A stretch of 64,000 bases of DNA from an uncultured Candidatus Saccharibacteria bacterium. GTDB taxonomy: Bacteria > Patescibacteriota > Minisyncoccia > Phycocordibacterales > UBA2100. Each line of letters starts with the position of its first letter. Position 1 is the first letter of the stretch. The DNA lies in the NCBI GenBank assembly GCA_964584225.1, contig CAZOZG010000001.1:21652-85651 (forward strand), in the 5' to 3' direction. Shown piece by piece: positions 2,814-63,872 of this stretch. The notes under the pieces were generated by a model that had not been told where the DNA came from, searched no databases, and saw nothing but the letters and a program-made list of their open reading frames with translations. The position numbers were made by a program, and so were the translations under genes.

Positions 2814-3515
2814 ATGGCCAAATCAGGACGTCCGTGGACGGTGGGTGCGCACTCTGAGCTGAAGCAGATCGACGACAATCTCTGGACAGTCGAAGACGTG
2901 TTCGCTCAAGGGATACATCGCCGAATGTGCATCATCAAGCGCTCGGATGGCGCTCTTACCTTTTTTCACGCGGTACCTGTCGATGACGCGACGCTCGCGA
3001 AGATTCGCGCGCTCGGGCAACCAAAATACATCGTCGTCGGCCACGAGCAACACACGGTGGATACGCGTGCCTTTCAAGAAAAACTCGGCCTTTCGGCATA
3101 CGGTCCGAAAAAGCTCGCCGAGGCGCTCAGAAAAAGATTCAATCTCACCGGCGCCCTTGAAGATATCCCCGCTGATCCGTCGATAGAGTACATCGAGACG
3201 CCCGGATCAAAGAAGGGCGAGACGACGTTGCTCGTAAAAAGCGGTGGCGGCTCGCGGGTGAGCATTCTCACTTCAGATGTACTCCAGAATAATCCGCAGA
3301 ATCTTCGACTTATGTTCCGCTTGCTCGGTTTTGCTGGCGGGCCAAAAGTCGTCCCGGTCTACCGCATGCTCTTTACCTCCGACAAAAAAGTCCTCAAAGA
3401 CACGCTTGTGAAATGGGCTGCCATGCCGGGCTTGAAGCGCCTCGTACCCTTCCACGGCATTATCGTCGAAGACGGGGTGAGCGAGGCAATCAAGAAAGCC
3501 GCATCAGCACTATGA
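2814..3515 (+). CDS. hypothetical protein (233 aa)
   Basis: Clean ORF with protein-like composition; no signal peptide; family not recognised with confidence. Confidence 0.5.
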   Translation: MAKSGRPWTVGAHSELKQIDDNLWTVEDVFAQGIHRRMCIIKRSDGALTFFHAVPVDDATLAKIRALGQPKYIVVGHEQHTVDTRAFQEKLGLSAYGPKKLAEALRKRFNLTGALEDIPADPSIEYIETPGSKKGETTLLVKSGGGSRVSILTSDVLQNNPQNLRLMFRLLGFAGGPKVVPVYRMLFTSDKKVLKDTLVKWAAMPGLKRLVPFHGIIVEDGVSEAIKKAASAL

Positions 3516-3943
3516 AGTCCGTCAAAACGAAAAACATCAAGCAAGTCGTGCTGTTCAAAGCGTCACCCCGTGAGCTCTATGCGATGCTCATGGATTCCAA
3601 AAGTCACGCGAAATTTACGGGCGAGAGCGCAAAGATGAGCAAAAAGATTGGCGCGAAATTTACCGCCTACGGCGGCTACATCACCGGCAAAAATCTCAAG
3701 CTGAAGCCCAGTCGCTTGATCGTCCAGGAGTGGCACATGAAAGGCTGGCCCACTGGCCACGCATCGAAAGTGATGTTTCTTTTCACAAAGACGAAAGATG
3801 GCACGAAGCTCACCTTTGGTCACACCGGCGTGCCTGCGACTAGCTACAAAGGCATCAACAGTGGGTGGAAGGAATCGTATTGGGACAAAATGAAAGTTGC
3901 GCTTGGCGAAAAGAAGGCGTCGAAGAAAAAGCGAGCCATGTAG
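3512..3943 (+). CDS. SRPBCC/Aha1-like (activator of Hsp90 ATPase homolog) domain protein
   Basis: 143-aa ORF overlapping the upstream stop by ATGA. Sequence pattern (ELYAMLMDSKSHAKFTG...GGYITGKNLKLKPSRLIVQEW) is typical of the AHSA1/SRPBCC family. Confidence 0.5.
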   Translation: MKSVKTKNIKQVVLFKASPRELYAMLMDSKSHAKFTGESAKMSKKIGAKFTAYGGYITGKNLKLKPSRLIVQEWHMKGWPTGHASKVMFLFTKTKDGTKLTFGHTGVPATSYKGINSGWKESYWDKMKVALGEKKASKKKRAM

Positions 3944-4626: not shown

Positions 4627-5331
4627 ATGCAAAGAGCAACTTCGCTCGGTGACATCACGCGAAGCGTGATGTGCATATCAAACTTCCGCCCCGGAGTGGG
4701 CCTCGATGCCTCAGGGACGGCGTGGTTCCTCAGGCCCACCGTCGTCGTGACTGCCGCGCATACTGCCTCAGGTATGAGCATGTGCCGTGAGTGGCAGCCG
4801 ATTTTGTGCAGGCACGTTGATAAAGGTGGTTCGAAGGAAGTCGCGTCTCTCAACGCCGCGCGGCTCATGAGTGTCGGGAGTCAACGCATTACTCCCGAAA
4901 CGAAGTGGCCTGTGGCTGCGACGATGTACGATGACATCGCACTTCTGGAGCTCCAGGAAGAAGTCCCTCACGCGCACATGCTCGCAGTGGAGCACGAACT
5001 TCCACCTGTGGGTACTCGCGTCGGCTGCGTCGGTTTCCCGCACGGGCAAATGGCTTTGGCGGTTGGCGAAATATTCGAATATGAATCGGGGCAGCCTCTC
5101 GCCATGAGGTTGAATCTCGGGCTCCAGGGGATCGCACCGACCGTGATGCGTTTCGGATCTTCGGGGGCGCCAATAGTGGGCCGGCGGGGTCGCGCCGTCG
5201 CGGTGCTCACGGGCTTGTGCGAGCCAGACGATCCTTTCGAACTTCTCTTCTCGCTCAGACCGAAACCGACGAACTTTGCGATTCACATCTCGCTGATCAC
5301 GCCTCTACTGCAGGAGCTGGGGCTGGGGTGA
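4627..5331 (+). CDS. trypsin-like serine peptidase (S1 family), no signal peptide
   Basis: Putative catalytic triad context: TAAH (His), DIALLEL (Asp) and GSSGAPIV (Ser). An aggagaagagg SD precedes the ATG. Confidence 0.6.
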   Translation: MQRATSLGDITRSVMCISNFRPGVGLDASGTAWFLRPTVVVTAAHTASGMSMCREWQPILCRHVDKGGSKEVASLNAARLMSVGSQRITPETKWPVAATMYDDIALLELQEEVPHAHMLAVEHELPPVGTRVGCVGFPHGQMALAVGEIFEYESGQPLAMRLNLGLQGIAPTVMRFGSSGAPIVGRRGRAVAVLTGLCEPDDPFELLFSLRPKPTNFAIHISLITPLLQELGLG

Positions 5332-5441
5332 GGTGAATCCACGAACATACCAAAAGGCATCGCCCCGCGCGCATGCCTTTTGTTTTTTTTCAATAACGCA
5401 CTAAAATCGTCGCTTAAGCGAAGAGGGAAGCCTCTTTCAAG

Positions 5442-5468
5442 AAAACCCGCCGCAAGGCGGGTTTTCTA
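5442..5468 (+). terminator. rho-independent terminator, repeat of the 2158 hairpin
   Basis: aaaacccgccgcaaggcgggtttt; lies between the two S1 peptidase genes. Confidence 0.55.
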
Positions 5469-5502
5469 CAGGTTGAGTGTCTGCTATAGTTTTCATCCCA
5501 GT

Positions 5503-6642
5503 ATGAATGACATACCAATATCTACTCGGTGGTTAAACGAAGCTGCTGACACCACAAATCAGTCAATTGCTCAAAATGTTTATCTGATCCATTGTCCCAA
5601 AACGCAAAGCAAGGGCACTGGTTTCGTGATCCCGACTGGTCATATTGTAACCAACTGGCACGTTATTAAAGATTGCGGAGCTAATGAGATAAAAGCCATA
5701 TCAACCAACGGTACGCAAATCGACTTTTCGAGCCTCATTGCAGACGAAAACCGAGATCTCGCTGTTCTCAAACCAACCATAGATTTAGGAGGTGGTTTAG
5801 AAATCCATGACGAAACCGAAAAAGTTCAAACAAAAGTATTAACGTGGGGACACCCGCTCGCATATAACGGACCTTCTCCGATTCTTTCCGTAGGCTACAT
5901 CGCTGGTTTTAATGAATACAAGAAAAATGCAACTGCGCCCGTGGTTAAGCGGTACGTCATCAACGGAGCCTTTAATCCTGGAAACTCAGGCGGACCTCTC
6001 CTCGCGGATCGAACAGCTAAAGTTGTTGGTGTGGTAGTTGCAAAACACGCGCCGATTCCGGATTTTCTACAGGCTGCTCTCGATGCCCTCAACAATAACA
6101 AGTCAGGATTCATGTACACAGCTTCGCATAATGGCGTGAGTAAAGGCTCGTTCTCTGAGGCTCAGCTAGTCGGCATGCTGCTGGATCATCAAAGAAAACT
6201 GACTCAGGTGATGATTGGAGAGGCCATATCCAGCTCTGAGCTGATAGCTTTTCTACAAGAAAGCAAAATTTTTCCCGAGAATAATGATATTCGTGGCTTG
6301 TCGGCAATATTTACGCGGTTTCTGAATTCAGTCTCAGACTTGACTGACAAATTTTATGATACTTTCGGGTTGTTTCTTGTTGTCGGGGGAAGTTTGCTGG
6401 CAGCAATGGCTATAGGCGAATTTCCAGGTCACTCAAGAATAGGCACTGATTCTGGCGAATACAGCATCATCGTAATGAAGCATCCAGTTTGGTTAAAATT
6501 GGGACTCATCGCCGTTGTGGTTGGATTTATCGTTCAGCTTTCGGACAACCTGATGACTGTTCATAAATTAGGTGGAAAAAGACTTTACTGGGCTTTAGGT
6601 GCCCTGTTAGTTTATTTGATACTTTTTGTAATGGCGAATTAG
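5503..6642 (+). CDS. trypsin-like serine peptidase (S1 family) with C-terminal transmembrane region; low-GC gene
   Basis: TNWHV (His), DLAVLK (Asp) and GNSGGPLL (Ser) motifs; two C-terminal hydrophobic helices; conspicuously AT-rich compared with neighbours; no SD. Confidence 0.55.
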   Translation: MNDIPISTRWLNEAADTTNQSIAQNVYLIHCPKTQSKGTGFVIPTGHIVTNWHVIKDCGANEIKAISTNGTQIDFSSLIADENRDLAVLKPTIDLGGGLEIHDETEKVQTKVLTWGHPLAYNGPSPILSVGYIAGFNEYKKNATAPVVKRYVINGAFNPGNSGGPLLADRTAKVVGVVVAKHAPIPDFLQAALDALNNNKSGFMYTASHNGVSKGSFSEAQLVGMLLDHQRKLTQVMIGEAISSSELIAFLQESKIFPENNDIRGLSAIFTRFLNSVSDLTDKFYDTFGLFLVVGGSLLAAMAIGEFPGHSRIGTDSGEYSIIVMKHPVWLKLGLIAVVVGFIVQLSDNLMTVHKLGGKRLYWALGALLVYLILFVMAN

Positions 6643-6693
6643 TCTAAATCGGCGATTACGAAAACTGTAAGTTCAATTTGGTATAGTGGCGGG

Positions 6694-7154: not shown

Positions 7155-7188
7155 AAAGACCGCGGCGAGATTCGCCGCGGTCTTTGTC
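7155..7188. terminator. bidirectional hairpin (gaccgcggcga-gat-tcgccgcggtc)
   Basis: Sits between convergent genes 6694-7149 (+) and 7194-7574 (-). Confidence 0.5.
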
Positions 7189-7193
7189 GGGGA

Positions 7194-7574
7194 TTACGAA
7201 GCCTTGTTCAATTGCACAGCTGCATTGTGCACGAGGCAGATGTTGGGAATGAGACCCGAAAGCAGCATCTCGCGCGGAGACTTATTGCCGAGCTCCGCAA
7301 GCGGTGCTCTGAGCCATTCTGTCAGCGGCTTGCGCTTGTTGAAACGCCGATCAAGCTGTTCCCGGATGTCGATAATGGTGCCGACGAGTTGGATCTCGCT
7401 CATCACGGGGCAATGAAGCAGTTCCGTTTTCACCGCTCCGAGTTCGGACTTTCGCCTGATCCGTTCGAAAAAGACGCGTGCGATCTGGGTCGGCGCGAAG
7501 CCGAGGTGCTTGAGGGATTCGAATGCAGTATCGATACGATTTGCAAACGACACTTTGGGGGTACGTGCTGGCAT
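7194..7574 (-). CDS. Xre-like/DUF2384-like (antitoxin ParS/MbcA-type C-terminal domain) protein, module copy 1
   Basis: C-terminal W...LGNKSPREMLLSG pattern resembles the DUF2384 domain. An aaggagag SD precedes the start. Paralog of 12971-13408. Confidence 0.5.
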   Translation of the reverse strand: MPARTPKVSFANRIDTAFESLKHLGFAPTQIARVFFERIRRKSELGAVKTELLHCPVMSEIQLVGTIIDIREQLDRRFNKRKPLTEWLRAPLAELGNKSPREMLLSGLIPNICLVHNAAVQLNKAS

Positions 7575-7590: not shown

Positions 7591-7615
7591 TGCCGGTCTG
7601 CACCCTAGCACAAAA
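7591..7615 (-). promoter_or_regulatory. conserved upstream motif copy a (tgccggtctgcaccctagcacaaaa)
   Basis: One of four near-identical ~22-nt motifs placed 25-40 nt upstream of each module gene. It contains an extended -10-like TGcTAGGGT on the minus strand. Confidence 0.45.
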
Positions 7616-7707
7616 TCTTTTTTTAAGAAATGAGCCAGCACGCGTACAAAGGAACGGCCGCGCGGTGAAAACCGCGCGGCTCTGATATGTCGATCGCCAA
7701 GTCGTTC

Positions 7708-7797
7708 TTAGCCGATGAGGTCGAAATAGTTGATCACGGTGAGCACGACCACTACAACCGCGACGAGGAACAAAAAGAATTTCACACACCCTGGCAT
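7708..7797 (-). CDS. 29-aa hydrophobic micropeptide (MPGCVKFFLFLVAVVVVVLTVINYFDLIG)
   Basis: Starts 2 nt after the stop of the CPFC membrane-protein gene, with an aaggag SD inside that gene's 3' end. A positional homolog exists in module copy 2. Confidence 0.3.
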   Translation of the reverse strand: MPGCVKFFLFLVAVVVVVLTVINYFDLIG

Positions 7798-7799
7798 GG

Positions 7800-8117
7800 C
7801 TACTTCTTCTCCTTGAAGTTGGGAATCGTCTGGATGGTTACGCCACTTATGATTGCTGCGACACCGACAACCGCAGCCAGAGATACAAGCACGTCGATGA
7901 CAAAAAACACGCGTAAGACCACTGGCCGGTAGATCACGATCAGTGGGAAGGCGACCCAATAGCTCGTACAGAACGGGCAACTGAGGAACGATTTGGGACC
8001 GAATTTTTTGGTGAACCAGTCCCGGAGCGGCTCACCGATATCAGCTTTCGTCAGGGTGACAGAAATCGCTGACACGGCGAAACCAAGGTAGATGATACCG
8101 ATGAACTGATCAATCAT
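7800..8117 (-). CDS. small 3-TM membrane protein with CPFCTSY motif (DUF1360-like), module copy 1
   Basis: About 105 aa; about 50% identical to 12531-12872; conserved SCPFCTS(Y/F) and IYRP motifs. Family assignment is from memory. Confidence 0.5.
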   Translation of the reverse strand: MIDQFIGIIYLGFAVSAISVTLTKADIGEPLRDWFTKKFGPKSFLSCPFCTSYWVAFPLIVIYRPVVLRVFFVIDVLVSLAAVVGVAAIISGVTIQTIPNFKEKK

Positions 8118-8133
8118 GATCGAGACCCTCTCT

Positions 8134-8157
8134 TCCGACCGGCACCCTACCATAAAA
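8134..8157 (-). promoter_or_regulatory. conserved upstream motif copy b (tccgaccggcaccctaccataaaa)
   Basis: Same motif family as 7591, 12889 and 13424. Confidence 0.45.
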
Positions 8158-8199
8158 CGTGTTTTCGAGAAATCGGGAACCATTTGTTACAATCCGCGC

Positions 8200-11599: not shown

Positions 11600-11950
11600 A
11601 TGAAAAAATTTGTTGTGGTGTATCGCGTACCTTTAGAAGTGATGGCGGAGTGGCGCAAGAACACGTCGCAAGAGGAAATGATGAAGCAGGGGAAAGAGCT
11701 CGGTGGTCAGATGGAGGCATGGATGAAAAAGAATGAGAAATCATTTGTCGACAAAGGCAATCCGCTTGGGAAAAACAAGCGCCTGATGAAAGATGGCGTG
11801 CAGGATGTGAGCAACGATCTCAACTACTACCAGGTCGTCGAAGCCAATACTGTCGACGAAGTCATCACGATGTGCAAAGACAACCCGCACATCGCGGTCA
11901 TTCCCGAGGCGTTCCTCGACATCATGGAAGTCCCGCAGATGGGAATGTAA
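11600..11950 (+). CDS. YciI-like / dimeric alpha+beta-barrel family protein, copy 1
   Basis: 116 aa; C-terminal YQVVEANTVDEVITMCKDNPH pattern resembles YciI-like proteins; paralog at 14398-14748. Confidence 0.4.
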   Translation: MKKFVVVYRVPLEVMAEWRKNTSQEEMMKQGKELGGQMEAWMKKNEKSFVDKGNPLGKNKRLMKDGVQDVSNDLNYYQVVEANTVDEVITMCKDNPHIAVIPEAFLDIMEVPQMGM

Positions 11951-12392: not shown

Positions 12393-12444
12393 TAAAAGAG
12401 GAAGACCGCCGGTATGAACCAGCGGTCTTTTGAGTGCGCGATCT

Positions 12445-12525
12445 TCAGCTAAACGCGCCCATCAGGTAGGCGCCGAAGACGACGACACCAGCGATGATAA
12501 GCAGCCAGACGAAAGGACATTTCAT
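12445..12525 (-). CDS. 26-aa hydrophobic micropeptide (MKCPFVWLLIIAGVVVFGAYLMGAFS)
   Basis: ATG lies 5 nt after the TAG of the CPFC membrane-protein gene, with an aaggag SD. Positional homolog of 7708-7797. Confidence 0.35.
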   Translation of the reverse strand: MKCPFVWLLIIAGVVVFGAYLMGAFS

Positions 12526-12530
12526 TGGGG

Positions 12531-12872
12531 CTACTCCTTCTCTTTAAAATCCGCGTTTGGATCTTTGTTGAAGTGTGGAATCGTTTGGATGACGACTCCG
12601 CTCACAACAGACGCTACGCCGACGATCGCGAAGAGCGAAACGAATAGATCGATCGGCGCGAATGTCAGTATCACCACCGGGCGGTAGATGAGTGTCAGCG
12701 CTGCCGACACATAGAAGCTCGTGCAGAATGGGCACGAGAGTGGTCCGAGACCGCCCCACCGGCCAAATACCCAGCCTCGGATTTGCTTTGACACCTGCGC
12801 TCTCGTCAATGCGACGGAGATCGCTGAGGCAGCAAAGCCGAGGTACACAATCAGGATGAAACGATCGAGCAT
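12531..12872 (-). CDS. small 3-TM membrane protein with CPFCTSF motif (DUF1360-like), module copy 2
   Basis: 113 aa; paralog of 7800-8117. Confidence 0.5.
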   Translation of the reverse strand: MLDRFILIVYLGFAASAISVALTRAQVSKQIRGWVFGRWGGLGPLSCPFCTSFYVSAALTLIYRPVVILTFAPIDLFVSLFAIVGVASVVSGVVIQTIPHFNKDPNADFKEKE

Positions 12873-12888: not shown

Positions 12889-12912
12889 TGCCGAAGAGCA
12901 CCCTAGCATGAA
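12889..12912 (-). promoter_or_regulatory. conserved upstream motif copy c (tgccgaagagcaccctagcatgaa)
   Basis: Same motif family. Confidence 0.4.
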
Positions 12913-12970
12913 GCTCCGGTAAAAGGAAAGGCCGCCCCTCGATTTTCTCGGGGCGGCCTTTTGCTGAAGG

Positions 12971-13408
12971 CTAGTTGGGAGCGAATAGTCGCAGCGACAT
13001 CGCCACAAATGTCACGAGCTTGGAATTCGCCTTCTCAAAGTTCAGCTCCTGGAGACGAATCAGCACGGCAGCCACGAGAAAGAGGCGGCCCTCCGTGAGC
13101 ATTGTCTTTGGCGAATTGCCGAGGCCCTTGTCTTTGCGTCGCACCCAACGCTGTACTTCTTTTTCCGATGTGAAGTGTCGCAACGCGAGCCGCCGGATCT
13201 TCACGAGCCACTCGGATCGGTCCAACACATCCATGTTTTGGAATTTCGTATTGGCGAGCCTGCGCCGAAGCGCGCGGATCTGCGCAGGCGTTCCGTTCAC
13301 GAGTCCGTAGACGCGTGCTCTTTCTTCGATCGAGAATCCGAGCTGCTCCAGCGCTTCAAAACCCGCGTGCACCTTCGCGCGGTATTTTTCAGCTTTCATC
13401 CATGCCAT
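12971..13408 (-). CDS. Xre-like/DUF2384-like protein, module copy 2
   Basis: 145 aa; shares the LGNSPKTMLTEG C-terminal pattern with 7194-7574; aaggag SD. Confidence 0.5.
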   Translation of the reverse strand: MAWMKAEKYRAKVHAGFEALEQLGFSIEERARVYGLVNGTPAQIRALRRRLANTKFQNMDVLDRSEWLVKIRRLALRHFTSEKEVQRWVRRKDKGLGNSPKTMLTEGRLFLVAAVLIRLQELNFEKANSKLVTFVAMSLRLFAPN

Positions 13409-13423
13409 CTTTTGTACTCCTTA

Positions 13424-13449
13424 TGCCGACCGGCACCCTAGCACAAAAG
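13424..13449 (-). promoter_or_regulatory. conserved upstream motif copy d (tgccgaccggcaccctagcacaaaag)
   Basis: Immediately upstream of the SD of 12971-13408. Confidence 0.45.
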
Positions 13450-13561
13450 AAAATCTTCGAAAATGGCGCGGTACAGCGCCAACACCAACGAGAAGAGGGA
13501 AATTCATAGCAACGTCTGCTATAGTGGCGCTCGGCAATAGTATTGAAAACGGAGGTTTCTC

Positions 13562-14314
13562 ATGGAGATGCAGACCAGGCGCTTCGCAGCGCCCGTAGTG
13601 CGCAGCTCTGAGAAGCTGCGCATCATGAGTTGGAATGTCTACTATGGCAACGGCGAGAGTCATGCCGCAGAAGTCATTGATGCGCTGCAGTCATTCGACG
13701 GCGACATACTCCTGCTCTATGAGTTGAGTTTGGGGTTGCGCCTTCCGATGCGAATTTCGGAATTGTATCGCTATGGTGTATTTGTCGATATGAACTATCG
13801 ACGATGGCTCTCGCCAGTCCCAGGTGGTGTCGCGCTGTTCTCACGATTTCCGATCGAGCGCTACCGTACTGTGAAAACGGCTAAAAATGGATTCTTGCGC
13901 GTACGGCGGTATTACCTTGAAACGCGCGTGACTCTATCGCCGGATTACACACTGACGATCGGCATGATTCACCACACGTTGCCGTTTGAGCTTGGCTACC
14001 GTAGTGCGTCGGAAACACTGCTGCGAGAAATATCAAAGCATCAAGAGAAATACGTGTTCGCTGCGGACTTAAACGCGATGCCGTCGTTCTGGATCACGAA
14101 GGAGATCGGAAAGCGACTCGTGCATCTGGGTCCGCAGTTAGCAATACCGAGCCATCCGGAGAATCGGTGGTTCGCAGACGTCACCCCACAACGACGTCTC
14201 GATTATGCGTTCGCGACTCCTGATGTCGCGGCCAGACGTACCAGTGCCCGATTTGGCGAGAGTAATCCGTCGGATCACAAGCCGCTGATCATCGATCTGG
14301 ATTTGAAAAAGTAG
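13562..14314 (+). CDS. endonuclease/exonuclease/phosphatase (EEP) family protein
   Basis: N-terminal LRIMSWNVYYG motif, C-terminal SDHKPLIIDL motif and an internal D..N motif, as in the EEP superfamily. Confidence 0.65.
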   Translation: MEMQTRRFAAPVVRSSEKLRIMSWNVYYGNGESHAAEVIDALQSFDGDILLLYELSLGLRLPMRISELYRYGVFVDMNYRRWLSPVPGGVALFSRFPIERYRTVKTAKNGFLRVRRYYLETRVTLSPDYTLTIGMIHHTLPFELGYRSASETLLREISKHQEKYVFAADLNAMPSFWITKEIGKRLVHLGPQLAIPSHPENRWFADVTPQRRLDYAFATPDVAARRTSARFGESNPSDHKPLIIDLDLKK

Positions 14315-14397: not shown

Positions 14398-14748
14398 ATG
14401 AAGCAATACCTAGCAATGTTTATGGGTTCGACCGCAGCCTTCGATGCGTGGATGAAAATGCCGGAAGCGGATCGAAAAGAAAAAGAAAAAGCGGGCATGC
14501 AAGGCTGGATGAAATGGGCGACTGACAACAAAGCGAGCATCGTCAACATGGGCTCGCCTTTGGGGAAGACGAAACGTGTCGACAAGAGTGGCATTACGGA
14601 TATCAAAAACGAGATGGGCGCTTGGTGCGTCGTGCAGGCGAATTCGTACGACGATGCAGTGAAACTCTTCATAAACCACCCGCACTTCACGCTTTTCCCC
14701 GGTGAGCGCATCGAGGTGATGGAGTGCTTGCCGATTCCGTCGATGTAA
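14398..14748 (+). CDS. YciI-like / dimeric alpha+beta-barrel family protein, copy 2
   Basis: Paralog of 11600-11950 (shared GSPLGKTKRV, VVQANSYDDAV, NHPH); TATACT -10 upstream. Confidence 0.4.
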   Translation: MKQYLAMFMGSTAAFDAWMKMPEADRKEKEKAGMQGWMKWATDNKASIVNMGSPLGKTKRVDKSGITDIKNEMGAWCVVQANSYDDAVKLFINHPHFTLFPGERIEVMECLPIPSM

Positions 14749-30360: not shown

Positions 30361-30407
30361 GGTTCAACTCCTTTGCCGAACAGCAGGCTAACATGGGCCT
30401 TAGAAAA

Positions 30408-57971: not shown

Positions 57972-58365
57972 GTGGAGATGGAGGGAATTGCACCCTCGTC
58001 CAGAGAAGGGAAGATGTATGCTTCTACACAGCGTAGATCATCTTGAAGTTTTAAATCACGTACCTAAAAGATGAACGAAACGGTACGCGATCGAGCTCGT
58101 TGTCTCGGAAATCTGCTGAGCAGACAGAATTCCATGCTTGAGATTTGTTACGCCCGGCGGAAATTAATCAAGCATCATCTCCGTGGACGGCGCTTAGGCT
58201 ACGAGAGCGTAAGCGGGCTGCAGGTCCGCCAATTGAATTGGCGAGAGTACTGCACGTGCTACTTTGTTCGCACTTAGTTTTGAGGCAGTTTCGAAAGATG
58301 CCCCAACTTTGTTGTGCACATACAAAATCCTATTTCCCTGTCGAAACTGATCATCCCCCACCTCC
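57972..58365 (-). ncRNA. ssrA: tmRNA (SsrA), about 392 nt, standard (non-permuted)
   Basis: 5' GGAGGUGGGGGAUGAUCAGUUUCGACAGGG matches the GGGGnnG...GAUUCGACGGG tmRNA consensus. The 3' end is a T-arm-like GAGGGUGCAAUUCCCUC followed by CAUCUCC-A, which pairs perfectly with the 5' GGAGGUG. An internal frame SPIQLADLQPAYALVA-UAA is a plausible tag peptide. It lies immediately downstream of smpB. Confidence 0.7.
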
Positions 58366-63757: not shown

Positions 63758-63830
63758 GCGCCCGTAGCTCAACGGTTAGAGCACAGAGCTTATACCTCTG
63801 GGGTTCCTGGTTCGAATCCAGGCGGGCGTA
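63758..63830 (+). tRNA. tRNA with anticodon UAU (reads AUA; tRNA-Ile by anticodon)
   Basis: Manual cloverleaf: acceptor GCGCCCG/CGGGCGU (G1-U72 wobble); D arm GCTC-AACGGTTA-GAGC; anticodon arm CAGAG-CTTATAC-CTCTG; variable loop GGGTT; T arm CCTGG-TTCGAAT-CCAGG; discriminator A; CCA not encoded. TATAAT at 63744-63749. Confidence 0.8.
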
Positions 63831-63872
63831 CATGAAACAAAATAGTGCCTACGCACTGTTTTGTTTCATGTA
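63831..63872 (+). terminator. long hairpin catgaaacaaaatagtgc-ctac-gcactgttttgtttcatg after the tRNA
   Basis: About 18-bp nearly perfect stem directly after the tRNA 3' end. Confidence 0.55.

What the first reader, a model, noticed from the sequence alone, without database searches (positions are those of the whole stretch)
13424..13449. Four copies of a ~22-nt motif upstream of every gene of the duplicated module
Plus-strand copies: tgccggtctgcaccctagcacaaaa (7591-7615), tccgaccggcaccctaccataaaa (8134-8157), tgccgaagagcaccctagcatgaa (12889-12912) and tgccgaccggcaccctagcacaaaag (13424-13449). On the coding (minus) strand this reads TTTTGTGCTAGGGTGCCGGTCGGCA, placed 25-40 nt upstream of each start and just 5' of the SD. 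It contains an extended -10-like TGcTAGGGT and a conserved GC-rich half, GTGCCGGTCGG. Its presence in front of both the Xre-like genes and the membrane-protein genes suggests a shared promoter or operator, possibly autoregulated by the Xre-like protein.
Basis: seen in the sequence. Interest (0 to 1): 0.6.

Follow-up and report, generated by a model that had tools for sequence, protein, structure and literature searches.

The report
Shared core promoter of a duplicated gene module
A 20-25 base sequence repeated four times is most likely the shared promoter that switches on the four separately transcribed units of a duplicated, uncharacterised gene module; it is a real signal, but an ordinary kind of one.

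Summary
TGSTAGGGTGCNNNNCGGMA, preceded by TTYR, occurs exactly four times in 64 kb. All copies are on the minus strand and end 15-16 nt before the ATG of two NatR/Xre-like genes and two DUF1360 membrane-protein genes. None is expected by chance.

The left half matches this genome's own promoter type, TGnTAnnnT. Elsewhere in the window that element sits exactly 6 nt before many start codons, which indicates leaderless mRNAs. This calibration puts the transcription start on the conserved CGG and gives a 19-20 nt leader carrying the Shine-Dalgarno sequence.

Each unit has its own terminator, and no other promoter candidate is present. The leaders show no significant RNA structure, and Rfam has no match there.

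A related metagenomic module (L008) also carries one near-identical block in front of both gene types, but with a different sequence (TCCTGTATTGTCGCGCTCRGAA). A shared core promoter therefore looks like a property of the module.

The "Xre-like" label is supported by fold: the best matches are NatR, VPA0769 and P. putida Xre. Autoregulation remains untested and is weakened by three points: no RES toxin, no dyad conserved in all copies, and different recognition helices in the two paralogs.

Verdict: a lineage-specific co-regulation promoter, with an operator role possible. Interest is modest.

The parts
13424..13448 (-). Motif copy 1: TTTTGTGCTAGGGTGCCGGTCGGCA. The -10 TAGGGT is at 13440..13435 and the predicted start at 13428/13427. 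It is the promoter of Xre/NatR-like gene B.
12889..12913 (-). Motif copy 2: CTTCATGCTAGGGTGCTCTTCGGCA. The -10 is at 12905..12900 and the predicted start at 12893/12892. It is the promoter of DUF1360 gene B plus its peptide ORF.
8133..8157 (-). Motif copy 3: TTTTATGGTAGGGTGCCGGTCGGAA. The -10 is at 8149..8144 and the predicted start at 8137/8136. It is the promoter of DUF1360 gene A plus its peptide ORF. It lies back to back with the leaderless promoter TGTTACAAT (8185-8193, +) of the DUF1801 gene.
7591..7615 (-). Motif copy 4: TTTTGTGCTAGGGTGCAGACCGGCA. The -10 is at 7607..7602 and the predicted start at 7595/7594. It is the promoter of Xre/NatR-like gene A.
12971..13408 (-). Xre/NatR-like protein B, 145 aa: an N-terminal helix-turn-helix-like domain plus an Xre_MbcA_ParS_C domain.
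   Evidence: Weak PF09722 hit. Profile hits to 6gw6_B and 8qnl_A. AF2 model with pLDDT 93.9. Foldseek top hits are NatR, VPA0769 and Xre.
7194..7574 (-). Xre/NatR-like protein A, 126 aa; a paralog of B at 27% identity.
12531..12872 (-). DUF1360 membrane protein B, 113 aa.
7800..8117 (-). DUF1360 membrane protein A, 105 aa; 55% identical to B.
12445..12525 (-). 26-aa hydrophobic peptide ORF (MKCPFVWLL...) directly after DUF1360 B, with no promoter of its own.
   Evidence: Equivalent ORFs follow DUF1360 in L003, L004, L005 and L008.
7708..7797 (-). 29-aa hydrophobic peptide ORF (MPGCVKFF...) directly after DUF1360 A.
12927..12961 (-). GC-rich hairpin (12-bp stem, 11-nt loop) followed by CCTTTT. 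It is the likely terminator of Xre-like gene B and separates that gene from motif copy 2.
   Evidence: Read from the sequence. The loop is too long for the scan used.
12402..12429 (-). Intrinsic terminator after the DUF1360 B and peptide unit.
7657..7680 (-). Intrinsic terminator after the DUF1360 A and peptide unit, just upstream of motif copy 4.
7155..7185 (-). Intrinsic terminator after Xre-like gene A.
   Evidence: I14

Best explanation
The motif is the core promoter of four independent transcription units: Xre-like A, DUF1360 A plus peptide, Xre-like B, and DUF1360 B plus peptide.

Proposed mechanism (inferred):
- RNA polymerase with the primary sigma factor recognises the extended -10 element (T-15 G-14, then T-12 A-11 ... 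T-7 of TAGGGT). It does not need a good -35.
- The polymerase melts the G-rich -10 and the GC-start discriminator.
- Transcription starts at the C/G of the conserved CGGMA, 7-8 nt after the -10.
- The resulting 19-20 nt leader holds little more than the Shine-Dalgarno sequence.

The conserved block runs from about -18 to +5, which is the span RNA polymerase contacts at extended -10 promoters. Only positions -4 to -1 vary.

Keeping the same unusual core (TAGGGT, G-6 C-5, CGGMA) on non-homologous genes gives them the same promoter kinetics and the same response to whatever acts there, so the module's genes are co-expressed although they are not in one operon. A repressor covering -10 to +5 is possible, with the module's own NatR/Xre-like protein the obvious candidate, but this is not shown.

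Shown: the sequence facts, the genome's promoter grammar, the terminators, the parallel case in L008, and the fold of the Xre-like protein. Inferred: the start site, the sigma factor, the co-regulation and any repressor.
For: - Four copies only, far above chance.
- The genome's other promoter-like sites are TGnTAnnnT. Many lie exactly 6 nt before an ATG that opens a long ORF, for example at 6679, 8185, 10346, 15444, 24363, 39004, 44934, 47776 and 49385.
- The TANNNT-to-ATG distance histogram peaks at 6-7 nt (22 and 12 cases, against roughly 2-8 at most other distances). A second rise at 24-28 nt contains the four copies, which sit at 26-27 nt.
- Each unit has its own terminator. The sigma-70 scan finds no other candidate on the minus strand in these intergenic regions. 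The copy at 8133-8157 sits in an 82-nt divergent intergenic region with no room for another promoter.
- Conservation cuts across non-homologous genes. The Xre-B and DUF1360-A copies match at 22/25, and the Xre-A and Xre-B copies at 22/25, although those two proteins are 27% identical.
- L008 has the same gene order (DUF1360, peptide, terminator, Xre-like). Both of its genes are preceded by TCCTGTATTGTCGCGCTC(A/G)GAA, that is, a -10 TATTGT, 6 nt, then CGGAA or CAGAA.
- When homolog loci L004, L005, L013, L014 and L015 are anchored at the -10, they show the same layout: a -10 hexamer (TAnnGT, or TATAAA in L004), 6 nt, then a pyrimidine-purine or purine start. L003 has 7 nt before GGCA.
- No RNA explanation: the fold z-scores are -0.02 to -1.48 and Rfam has no hit at these sites.
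Against: - There are no transcript data, so the start site is inferred only from the genome's own leaderless genes.
- TAGGGT is not seen at any other promoter-like site in the window. Recognition by the primary sigma factor is an assumption based on the TANNNT rule known from Actinobacteria and Deinococcus (PMC3898074, PMC4007540).
- The source organism is unidentified.
- RNA polymerase contacts alone do not obviously demand identity at the three G's and at G-6 C-5 in all four copies. An additional sequence-specific factor may well be involved.
- Only 64 kb of the genome could be scanned. The genome is absent from the representative-genome collection.
Confidence: 0.62

Rival explanations
1. 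Operator for the module's own NatR/Xre-like protein. On this view the block is conserved mainly because a dimer or higher oligomer of the Xre-like protein binds over -10 to +5 and represses all four units. This is compatible with the block also being the promoter.
For: - The AF2 model (pLDDT 93.9) best matches the NatR, VPA0769 and P. putida Xre antitoxins, including a DNA-bound complex.
- Sequence profiles agree.
- NatR-NatT and Xre-RES repress their own promoters (PMC11535050, PMC12204516).
- The block's sequence differs between genomes but is shared within each genome (window versus L008). That is expected if it co-evolves with a module-encoded binder.
- The pattern of conserved flanks around a free 4-nt spacer resembles a bipartite site.
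Against: - No dyad is conserved in all four copies. TGCCG-GT-CGGCA is perfect only at 13424-13435 and 9/10 at 8133-8144.
- The two paralogs differ strongly in the putative recognition helix (PAQIRALRRRLA versus KSELGAVKTELL), yet the motif carries no module-specific signature.
- The known relatives bind DNA only as a 4:2 complex with a RES toxin, and no such toxin is present.
- The homologs in L013 and L015 share the -10 TAGTGT but have dissimilar helices.
Confidence: 0.3
2. Promoter cassette inherited by duplication, with no special regulation. On this view the four copies descend from one promoter that was copied when the module was rearranged and duplicated, and they stay similar only because any working extended -10 promoter is constrained.
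For: - The DUF1360 A and B copies match at 18/25 (72%), about the same as the 70% DNA identity at the start of their coding regions (D2).
- The GGTCTCG stretch in the two DUF1360 leaders points to common descent.
- The left half equals the generic TGTGCTAnnnT of strong promoters in this genome.
Against: - Xre-like A and B have diverged to 27% protein identity, but their motifs still match at 22/25.
- Positions that generic promoters here leave free are invariant in all four: the three G's, G-6, C-5 and CGG.
- The flanks outside the block cannot be aligned.
- L008 shows the same within-genome identity with a different sequence.
Confidence: 0.15
3. Promoter for an alternative sigma factor, with the GGGT(G)C part acting as a sigmaB/F-like -10 and the four units forming a stress regulon.
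For: GGGTGC resembles the GGGTAT/GGGTAC -10 of sigmaB/F-type promoters (from memory). TAGGGT is confined to these genes in the window and recurs upstream of the DUF1360 homolog in L005.
Against: - No GTTT-type -35 lies at 12-17 nt. The upstream region shows only a loosely conserved ATTTC.
- The L008 module uses TATTGT, and L013, L014 and L015 use TAGTGT or TACGGT. An alternative-sigma -10 should be conserved across genomes.
- The TG and TA...T positions fit the primary-sigma pattern of the genome exactly.
Confidence: 0.07
4. Leader RNA element. On this view transcription starts further upstream, and the motif acts in the mRNA as a protein-binding site or small hairpin that controls translation or stability.
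For: A small UGCN-NNNN-NGCA hairpin can be drawn. Xre-like homologs in L008, L013, L014 and L015 have a real hairpin in their longer leaders.
Against: - The folds are no better than shuffles, with z-scores of -0.02 to -1.48.
- The closing pairs are not maintained in two of the four copies.
- Rfam has no match.
- Terminators lie directly upstream of two copies, and an 82-nt divergent region holds a third, so there is no room for an upstream promoter.
Confidence: 0.05

Closest known systems
Extended -10 (TGn) promoters with a TANNNT -10, as in leaderless-rich bacteria such as Mycobacterium and Deinococcus (PMC3898074, PMC4007540, PMC12340547)
   Same: TG lies one base upstream of a TAnnnT hexamer and there is no convincing -35. 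The same genome has many genes whose ATG sits 6-7 nt after such a hexamer.
   Different: These four promoters are leadered (19-20 nt, with a Shine-Dalgarno sequence). They also share a longer, gene-set-specific block (TAGGGT, GC, N4, CGGMA) that generic promoters lack.
Autoregulated promoters of RES-type toxin-antitoxin systems: P. putida Xre-RES and P. aeruginosa NatR-NatT
   Same: The module encodes proteins with the NatR/Xre antitoxin fold. In the known systems this protein, in complex with its toxin, binds a repeat in its own promoter and represses it (PMC12204516, PMC11535050).
   Different: Here there is no RES toxin, and the neighbour is a DUF1360 membrane protein with a small peptide ORF. 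The genes are separate transcription units in variable order. The same block also precedes the non-homologous partner gene. No conserved palindrome is present.
Regulon-type shared cis elements and putative 'mobile promoters' (homologous promoter sequences in front of non-homologous genes within one genome; the concept is recalled from memory)
   Same: A short, nearly identical upstream block lies in front of non-homologous genes at a fixed distance from the start codon.
   Different: There are only four copies, all within one duplicated module. No sign of mobility was found, and there are no copies elsewhere in the 64 kb.

Membership tests
Primary-sigma extended -10 promoter | TG at -15/-14, one base upstream of the -10 hexamer | tested here: met
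   TGC or TGG directly precedes TAGGGT in all four copies.
Primary-sigma extended -10 promoter | -10 hexamer with T-12, A-11 and T-7 | tested here: met
   TAGGGT fits TANNNT. The interior GGG is atypical compared with the TATAGT, TATACT and TACAAT seen elsewhere in the window.
Primary-sigma extended -10 promoter | Position and orientation consistent with driving the downstream gene | tested here: met
   The -10 ends 26-27 nt before the ATG, inside the 24-28 nt class of the genome's own distance histogram. Terminators or divergent promoters bound each region.
Primary-sigma extended -10 promoter | Transcription actually starts 6-8 nt downstream of the hexamer | not testable with these tools
   No transcript data were available. 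The start is inferred from leaderless genes of the same window.
Xre-RES / NatR-NatT type autoregulated toxin-antitoxin locus | Antitoxin with an HTH N-domain and an Xre_MbcA_ParS_C domain | tested here: met
   Foldseek against 8qnq_A, 8qnl and 8gug gives TM 0.51-0.75 at probability 1.0. The profile matches 6gw6_B at E 2e-6 and 8qnl_A over its full length. PF09722 matches 16 of 32 family members, but the two window proteins score below Pfam's cut-off.
Xre-RES / NatR-NatT type autoregulated toxin-antitoxin locus | Adjacent RES-domain (or MbcT/ParT) toxin co-transcribed with the antitoxin | tested here: not met
   The neighbours are DUF1360, small peptide ORFs, DUF1801, Exo_endo_phos and others, with no RES domain. 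Each gene has its own terminator.
Xre-RES / NatR-NatT type autoregulated toxin-antitoxin locus | Inverted repeat operator in the promoter | tested here: inconclusive
   A 5+5 dyad, TGCCG-GT-CGGCA, is perfect in one copy, 9/10 in a second and degenerate in the other two. No other shared dyad was found.
Xre-RES / NatR-NatT type autoregulated toxin-antitoxin locus | Protein binds the promoter and represses it | not testable with these tools
   This needs EMSA, footprinting or reporter assays.
SigmaB/F-type alternative sigma promoter | GTTT-type -35 about 12-17 nt upstream of a GGGTAT-like -10 | tested here: not met
   No such element is seen in the anchored alignment. The -10 interior is not conserved in related modules.
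Cis-regulatory RNA (riboswitch or leader) | Match to a described family, or a stable conserved structure | tested here: not met
   Rfam at gathering threshold finds only a tmRNA and a tRNA in the window. Fold z-scores are -0.02 to -1.48.
Dispersed repeat (REP/MITE-like) | Many copies in varied contexts, or terminal inverted repeats | tested here: not met
   There are four copies, each in the same orientation and at the same distance from a start codon. Only 2 unrelated hits were found in 596 Gb of representative genomes.

The most novel reading that the evidence does not exclude
The NatR/Xre-like protein, the DUF1360 membrane protein and the small Cys-Pro peptide together form a previously undescribed toxin-antitoxin-like or membrane-stress module. 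In it, an antitoxin-fold regulator that has no RES toxin controls, through the shared -10/+1 block, both its own gene and a membrane effector operon transcribed separately. The block would then be its operator, co-evolving with the module from genome to genome (TAGGGTGC..CGGMA here, TATTGTCGCGCTCRGAA in L008).
Probability: 0.2. Interest if true: 0.6.

Novelty: new member of a known kind. Interest (0 to 1): 0.33.

Why it matters
The motif gives a concrete, testable handle on an uncharacterised module. The module pairs antitoxin-fold regulators that lack any known toxin with a DUF1360 membrane protein, a family that appears in only two papers of the searched literature, neither of them about its function.

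It also documents the promoter grammar of an unidentified lineage: an extended -10, many leaderless genes, and a class of very short leaders. That grammar helps start-codon and operon annotation.

If the regulator is shown to bind the block, antitoxin-type autoregulation would extend to a toxin-less, multi-unit arrangement. If not, this is a clean example of co-expression achieved by copying a core promoter rather than by forming an operon.

Tried and rejected
- **Whole-collection motif scan.** Scanning 596 Gb of representative genomes with TTYRTGSTAGGGTGCNNNNCGGMA gave only 2 unrelated single hits, in a Flavobacteriaceae MAG and an Alphaproteobacteria MAG, with no module homologs nearby. The source genome is not in that collection, so the genome-wide regulon test could not be run.
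- **Viral contigs.** There were 11 single motif hits. At least two (L016, L017) arise from generic GGGTGC-N6-GCACCC hairpins, the L025/L026 pair are near-identical sequences, and none lies near a module homolog. No DUF1360 relatives were found.
- **Phage and plasmid collections.** No protein matches.
- **Exact-protein look-ups to recover the source contig.** Most failed. Only two short Logan contigs of the same organism were found.
- **Word-based homolog searches.** These found almost nothing. The HMMER representative search gave 46 family members.
- **First structure prediction.** With a two-sequence alignment the model was unusable, at pLDDT 47. The 32-sequence alignment fixed this.
- **PADLOC defence models.** No hits.
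- **Sigma-54 reading of the plus strand (GGCAC...GCA).** Rejected. The GG-to-GC spacing is 9 rather than 12, and it would point away from the genes.
- **Sigma-28, ECF and sigmaB/F readings.** Rejected for lack of a matching -35 or -10.
- **'CGGMA at +1 is a general feature of the genome'.** Only weakly true. TANNNT-N6-CGGMA occurs 7 times against 3.6 expected. Four of these are the motif and two more are promoter-like, at 13520(+) and 30390(-).

Full report
**Observation**

A search for TGCTAGGGTGCCGGTCGGCA with up to 3 mismatches returns only 7591-7610, 8133-8152, 12889-12908 and 13424-13443, all on the minus strand, and shuffles gave 0.00 matches. The octamer TAGGGTGC occurs only at these four sites.

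A PWM built from the four 25-mers scores them 33.0-38.6 bits, and the next best site in the window scores 11.8 bits. The repeat finder returns the same four sites as its top direct-repeat family, 47 nt long at 62-72% identity. The pattern common to all four is TTYR-TGS-TAGGGT-GC-NNNN-CGGMA.

**Surroundings**

All four copies lie on the coding strand of minus-strand genes and end 15-16 nt before the ATG. The genes form two paralogous modules.

| | Module A | Module B |
|---|---|---|
| DUF1360 protein | 8117..7800 | 12872..12531 |
| Peptide ORF | 29 aa, 7797..7708 | 26 aa, 12525..12445 |
| Xre-like protein | 7574..7194 | 13408..12971 |
| Order along the minus strand | DUF1360, peptide, Xre-like | Xre-like, DUF1360, peptide |

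- The DUF1360 pair is 55% identical and the Xre-like pair only 27% identical.
- The gene order is swapped between the two modules.
- Every unit ends in its own hairpin terminator: 7185-7155, 7680-7657 and 12429-12402, and 12961-12927 read from the sequence.
- The module is therefore four separate transcription units. The peptide ORFs have no motif of their own and follow the DUF1360 genes without an intervening terminator.

**What the left half is**

Promoter-like sites elsewhere in the window have the form TGnTAnnnT (TGCTATAGT, TGGTATACT, TGCTACAAT and similar). A striking number sit exactly 6 nt before an ATG that opens a long ORF, at 6679, 8185, 10346, 15444, 24363, 39004, 44934, 47776 and 49385.

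The TANNNT-to-ATG distance histogram has a sharp peak at 6-7 nt (22 and 12 cases, against roughly 2-8 at most other distances). A second, broader rise lies at 24-28 nt. This is the signature of abundant leaderless mRNAs described for Mycobacterium and Deinococcus (PMC3898074, PMC4007540, PMC12340547).

The leaderless genes calibrate the start site at the 7th base after the -10. Applied to the motif, this gives the following layout:

- TG at -15/-14;
- TAGGGT at -12 to -7;
- G-6 C-5;
- four free positions at -4 to -1;
- a start on the C/G of the conserved CGGMA;
- a 19-20 nt leader made of little more than the Shine-Dalgarno sequence.

The four copies have a -10-to-ATG distance of 26-27 nt, inside the genome's short-leader class. 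No alternative sigma-70-like site is found on the minus strand in these intergenic regions. The copy at 8133-8157 shares an 82-nt region with the divergent leaderless promoter of the DUF1360 A neighbour, the DUF1801 gene, so there is no room for another promoter. I conclude that the motif is the core promoter of each unit. The start site remains inferred.

**Why conservation goes beyond a generic promoter**

Generic promoters here vary freely inside the -10 and in the discriminator. The four copies nevertheless share GGG, G-6, C-5 and CGG.A.

- Copies in front of non-homologous genes match at 22/25 (Xre-B versus DUF1360-A).
- The two Xre-like copies also match at 22/25, although their proteins are 27% identical.
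- Sequence outside the block cannot be aligned.
- The DUF1360 A and B pair alone is less telling. Its block matches at 18/25, similar to the 70% DNA identity of the adjacent coding sequence.

**Related loci**

The family is rare. Word-based searches found four DUF1360 relatives and no Xre-like relatives. The exhaustive HMMER search found 46 Xre-like relatives.

The most informative locus is L008, a metagenomic contig with the same order as module A: DUF1360, a 25-aa peptide ORF, a terminator, then the Xre-like gene. Both of its genes are preceded by the same block, TCCTGTATTGTCGCGCTC(A/G)GAA, which is identical over 18 nt. The sequence differs from the window's, but the layout is the same: a -10 TATTGT, 6 nt, then CGGAA or CAGAA. 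A shared core promoter for the two gene types therefore looks like a property of the module, and its sequence differs between genomes.

Other loci, anchored at the -10, show the same general layout:

| Locus | Gene | -10 and what follows |
|---|---|---|
| L005 | DUF1360, 60% identical | TAGGGTG |
| L013 | Xre-like | TAGTGT, N6, CGGAA |
| L014 | Xre-like | TACGGT, N6, AGCAA |
| L015 | Xre-like | TAGTGT, N6, CAGAG |
| L004 | DUF1360 preceded by a 69-aa ORF | TATAAA, N6, CGGCA |
| L003 | DUF1360 preceded by a 69-aa ORF | CATAAA, N7, GGCA |

L013-L015 and the Xre-like gene of L008 carry an additional leader hairpin that the window copies lack.

**The Xre-like protein**

Pfam and NCBIfam give only sub-threshold hits to the Xre/MbcA/ParS C-terminal domain. 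The other evidence is stronger:

- A 32-sequence family profile hits the P. putida Xre antitoxin (6gw6_B, E 2e-6) and NatR over its full length (8qnl_A).
- 16 of 32 family members hit PF09722.
- With that alignment AlphaFold gives a confident model, at pLDDT 93.9.
- Its best PDB matches are NatR (TM 0.61-0.75), VPA0769 and P. putida Xre, including the DNA-bound complex 9r35.

Those relatives repress their own promoters, but as 4:2 complexes with a RES toxin and through an inverted repeat (PMC12204516, PMC11535050).

Four points count against it here:

- There is no RES toxin.
- The genes are not an operon.
- No dyad is shared by all four copies. TGCCG-GT-CGGCA is perfect in one copy and 9/10 in another.
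- The putative recognition helices of the two paralogs are very different, yet the motif shows no module-specific variant.

**Rivals tested**

- An RNA element is unlikely. The fold z-scores are -0.02 to -1.48, Rfam has no hit, and terminators lie directly upstream of two copies.
- An alternative sigma factor is unlikely. There is no matching -35, and the -10 interior is not conserved across genomes.
- A dispersed repeat is excluded by copy number and by the strictly fixed context.
- Simple inheritance by duplication explains part of the similarity. It does not explain the identity across non-homologous genes or across the highly diverged Xre-like pair.

**Verdict**

This is a real, lineage-specific core promoter, with a possible overlapping operator, that co-regulates four units of an uncharacterised duplicated module. 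My probability estimates are:

- about 0.8 that it is the promoter;
- about 0.5 that a dedicated factor reads the non-generic positions;
- about 0.3 that this factor is the module's own NatR/Xre-like protein.

It is a new member of a known kind. Interest is modest (0.33). It would rise if the antitoxin-fold protein proves to control a DUF1360 membrane effector in a toxin-less arrangement.

Noticed in passing
window 7708-7797 (-) and 12445-12525 (-); L003 1329-1412, L004 3125-3199, L005 434-520, L008 354-431: Every DUF1360 gene of this subfamily is followed directly by a 24-29 aa hydrophobic ORF whose N-terminus carries Cys or Cys-Pro (MKCPFVW..., MPGCVKFF..., MLKCPFVW..., MWGCPGIW..., MRVCPALA...). 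The DUF1360 proteins themselves have an invariant LSCPFCT motif. This looks like a conserved two-gene membrane pair of unknown function.
   Followed up: partly
whole window, e.g. 6679, 8185, 10346, 15444, 24363, 39004, 44934, 47776, 49385: Many genes have TGnTAnnnT exactly 6 nt before the ATG. The distance histogram peaks at 6-7 nt, which implies widespread leaderless mRNAs and extended -10 promoters in this unidentified organism.
   Followed up: yes
window 13517-13536 (+) and 30374-30393 (-): Two other promoter-like sites share the right half of the motif. TGCTATAGTGGCGCTCGGCA lies divergent from Xre-like B and drives the Exo_endo_phos gene at 13562. TGTTAGCCTGCTGTTCGGCAAAGGAG lies before an 83-aa ORF with no family match. 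They may be weak relatives of the motif or may just share a favoured start context.
   Followed up: partly
L008 509-545, L013 436-460, L014 1251-1270, L015 207-232 (approximate): Xre-like homologs in other genomes have a 6-8 bp hairpin in the leader a few bases after the predicted start. The sequences differ but the position is the same. The window copies lack it.
   Followed up: partly
L003 about 1440-1890 and L004 about 3240-3680: A conserved non-coding stretch of about 400 nt lies downstream of the DUF1360 and peptide pair in two contigs of GCA_021733385.1. It starts at a TGCTATTCT promoter-like site and has no Rfam match. It may be a long leader or a non-coding RNA.
   Followed up: partly
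window 11600-11950 (+) and 14398-14748 (+); 4627-5331 (+) and 5380-6642 (+): The region holds further paralog pairs. Two 116-aa proteins without Pfam hits flank module B and look clearly similar by eye. Two trypsin-like peptidase genes lie in tandem upstream of module A.
   Followed up: no
window 63758-63831 (+) and 57972-58358 (-): There is a tRNA-Ile with the uncommon anticodon TAT, and a tmRNA whose tag peptide is ANKVARAVLSPIQLADLQPAYALVA.
   Followed up: no
window 13399-13408: The public protein for Xre-like B (P0005, 142 aa) starts three codons downstream of the first ATG. The AAGGAG Shine-Dalgarno sequence lies 8 nt before the first ATG (13408), which favours the longer 145-aa form.
   Followed up: partly
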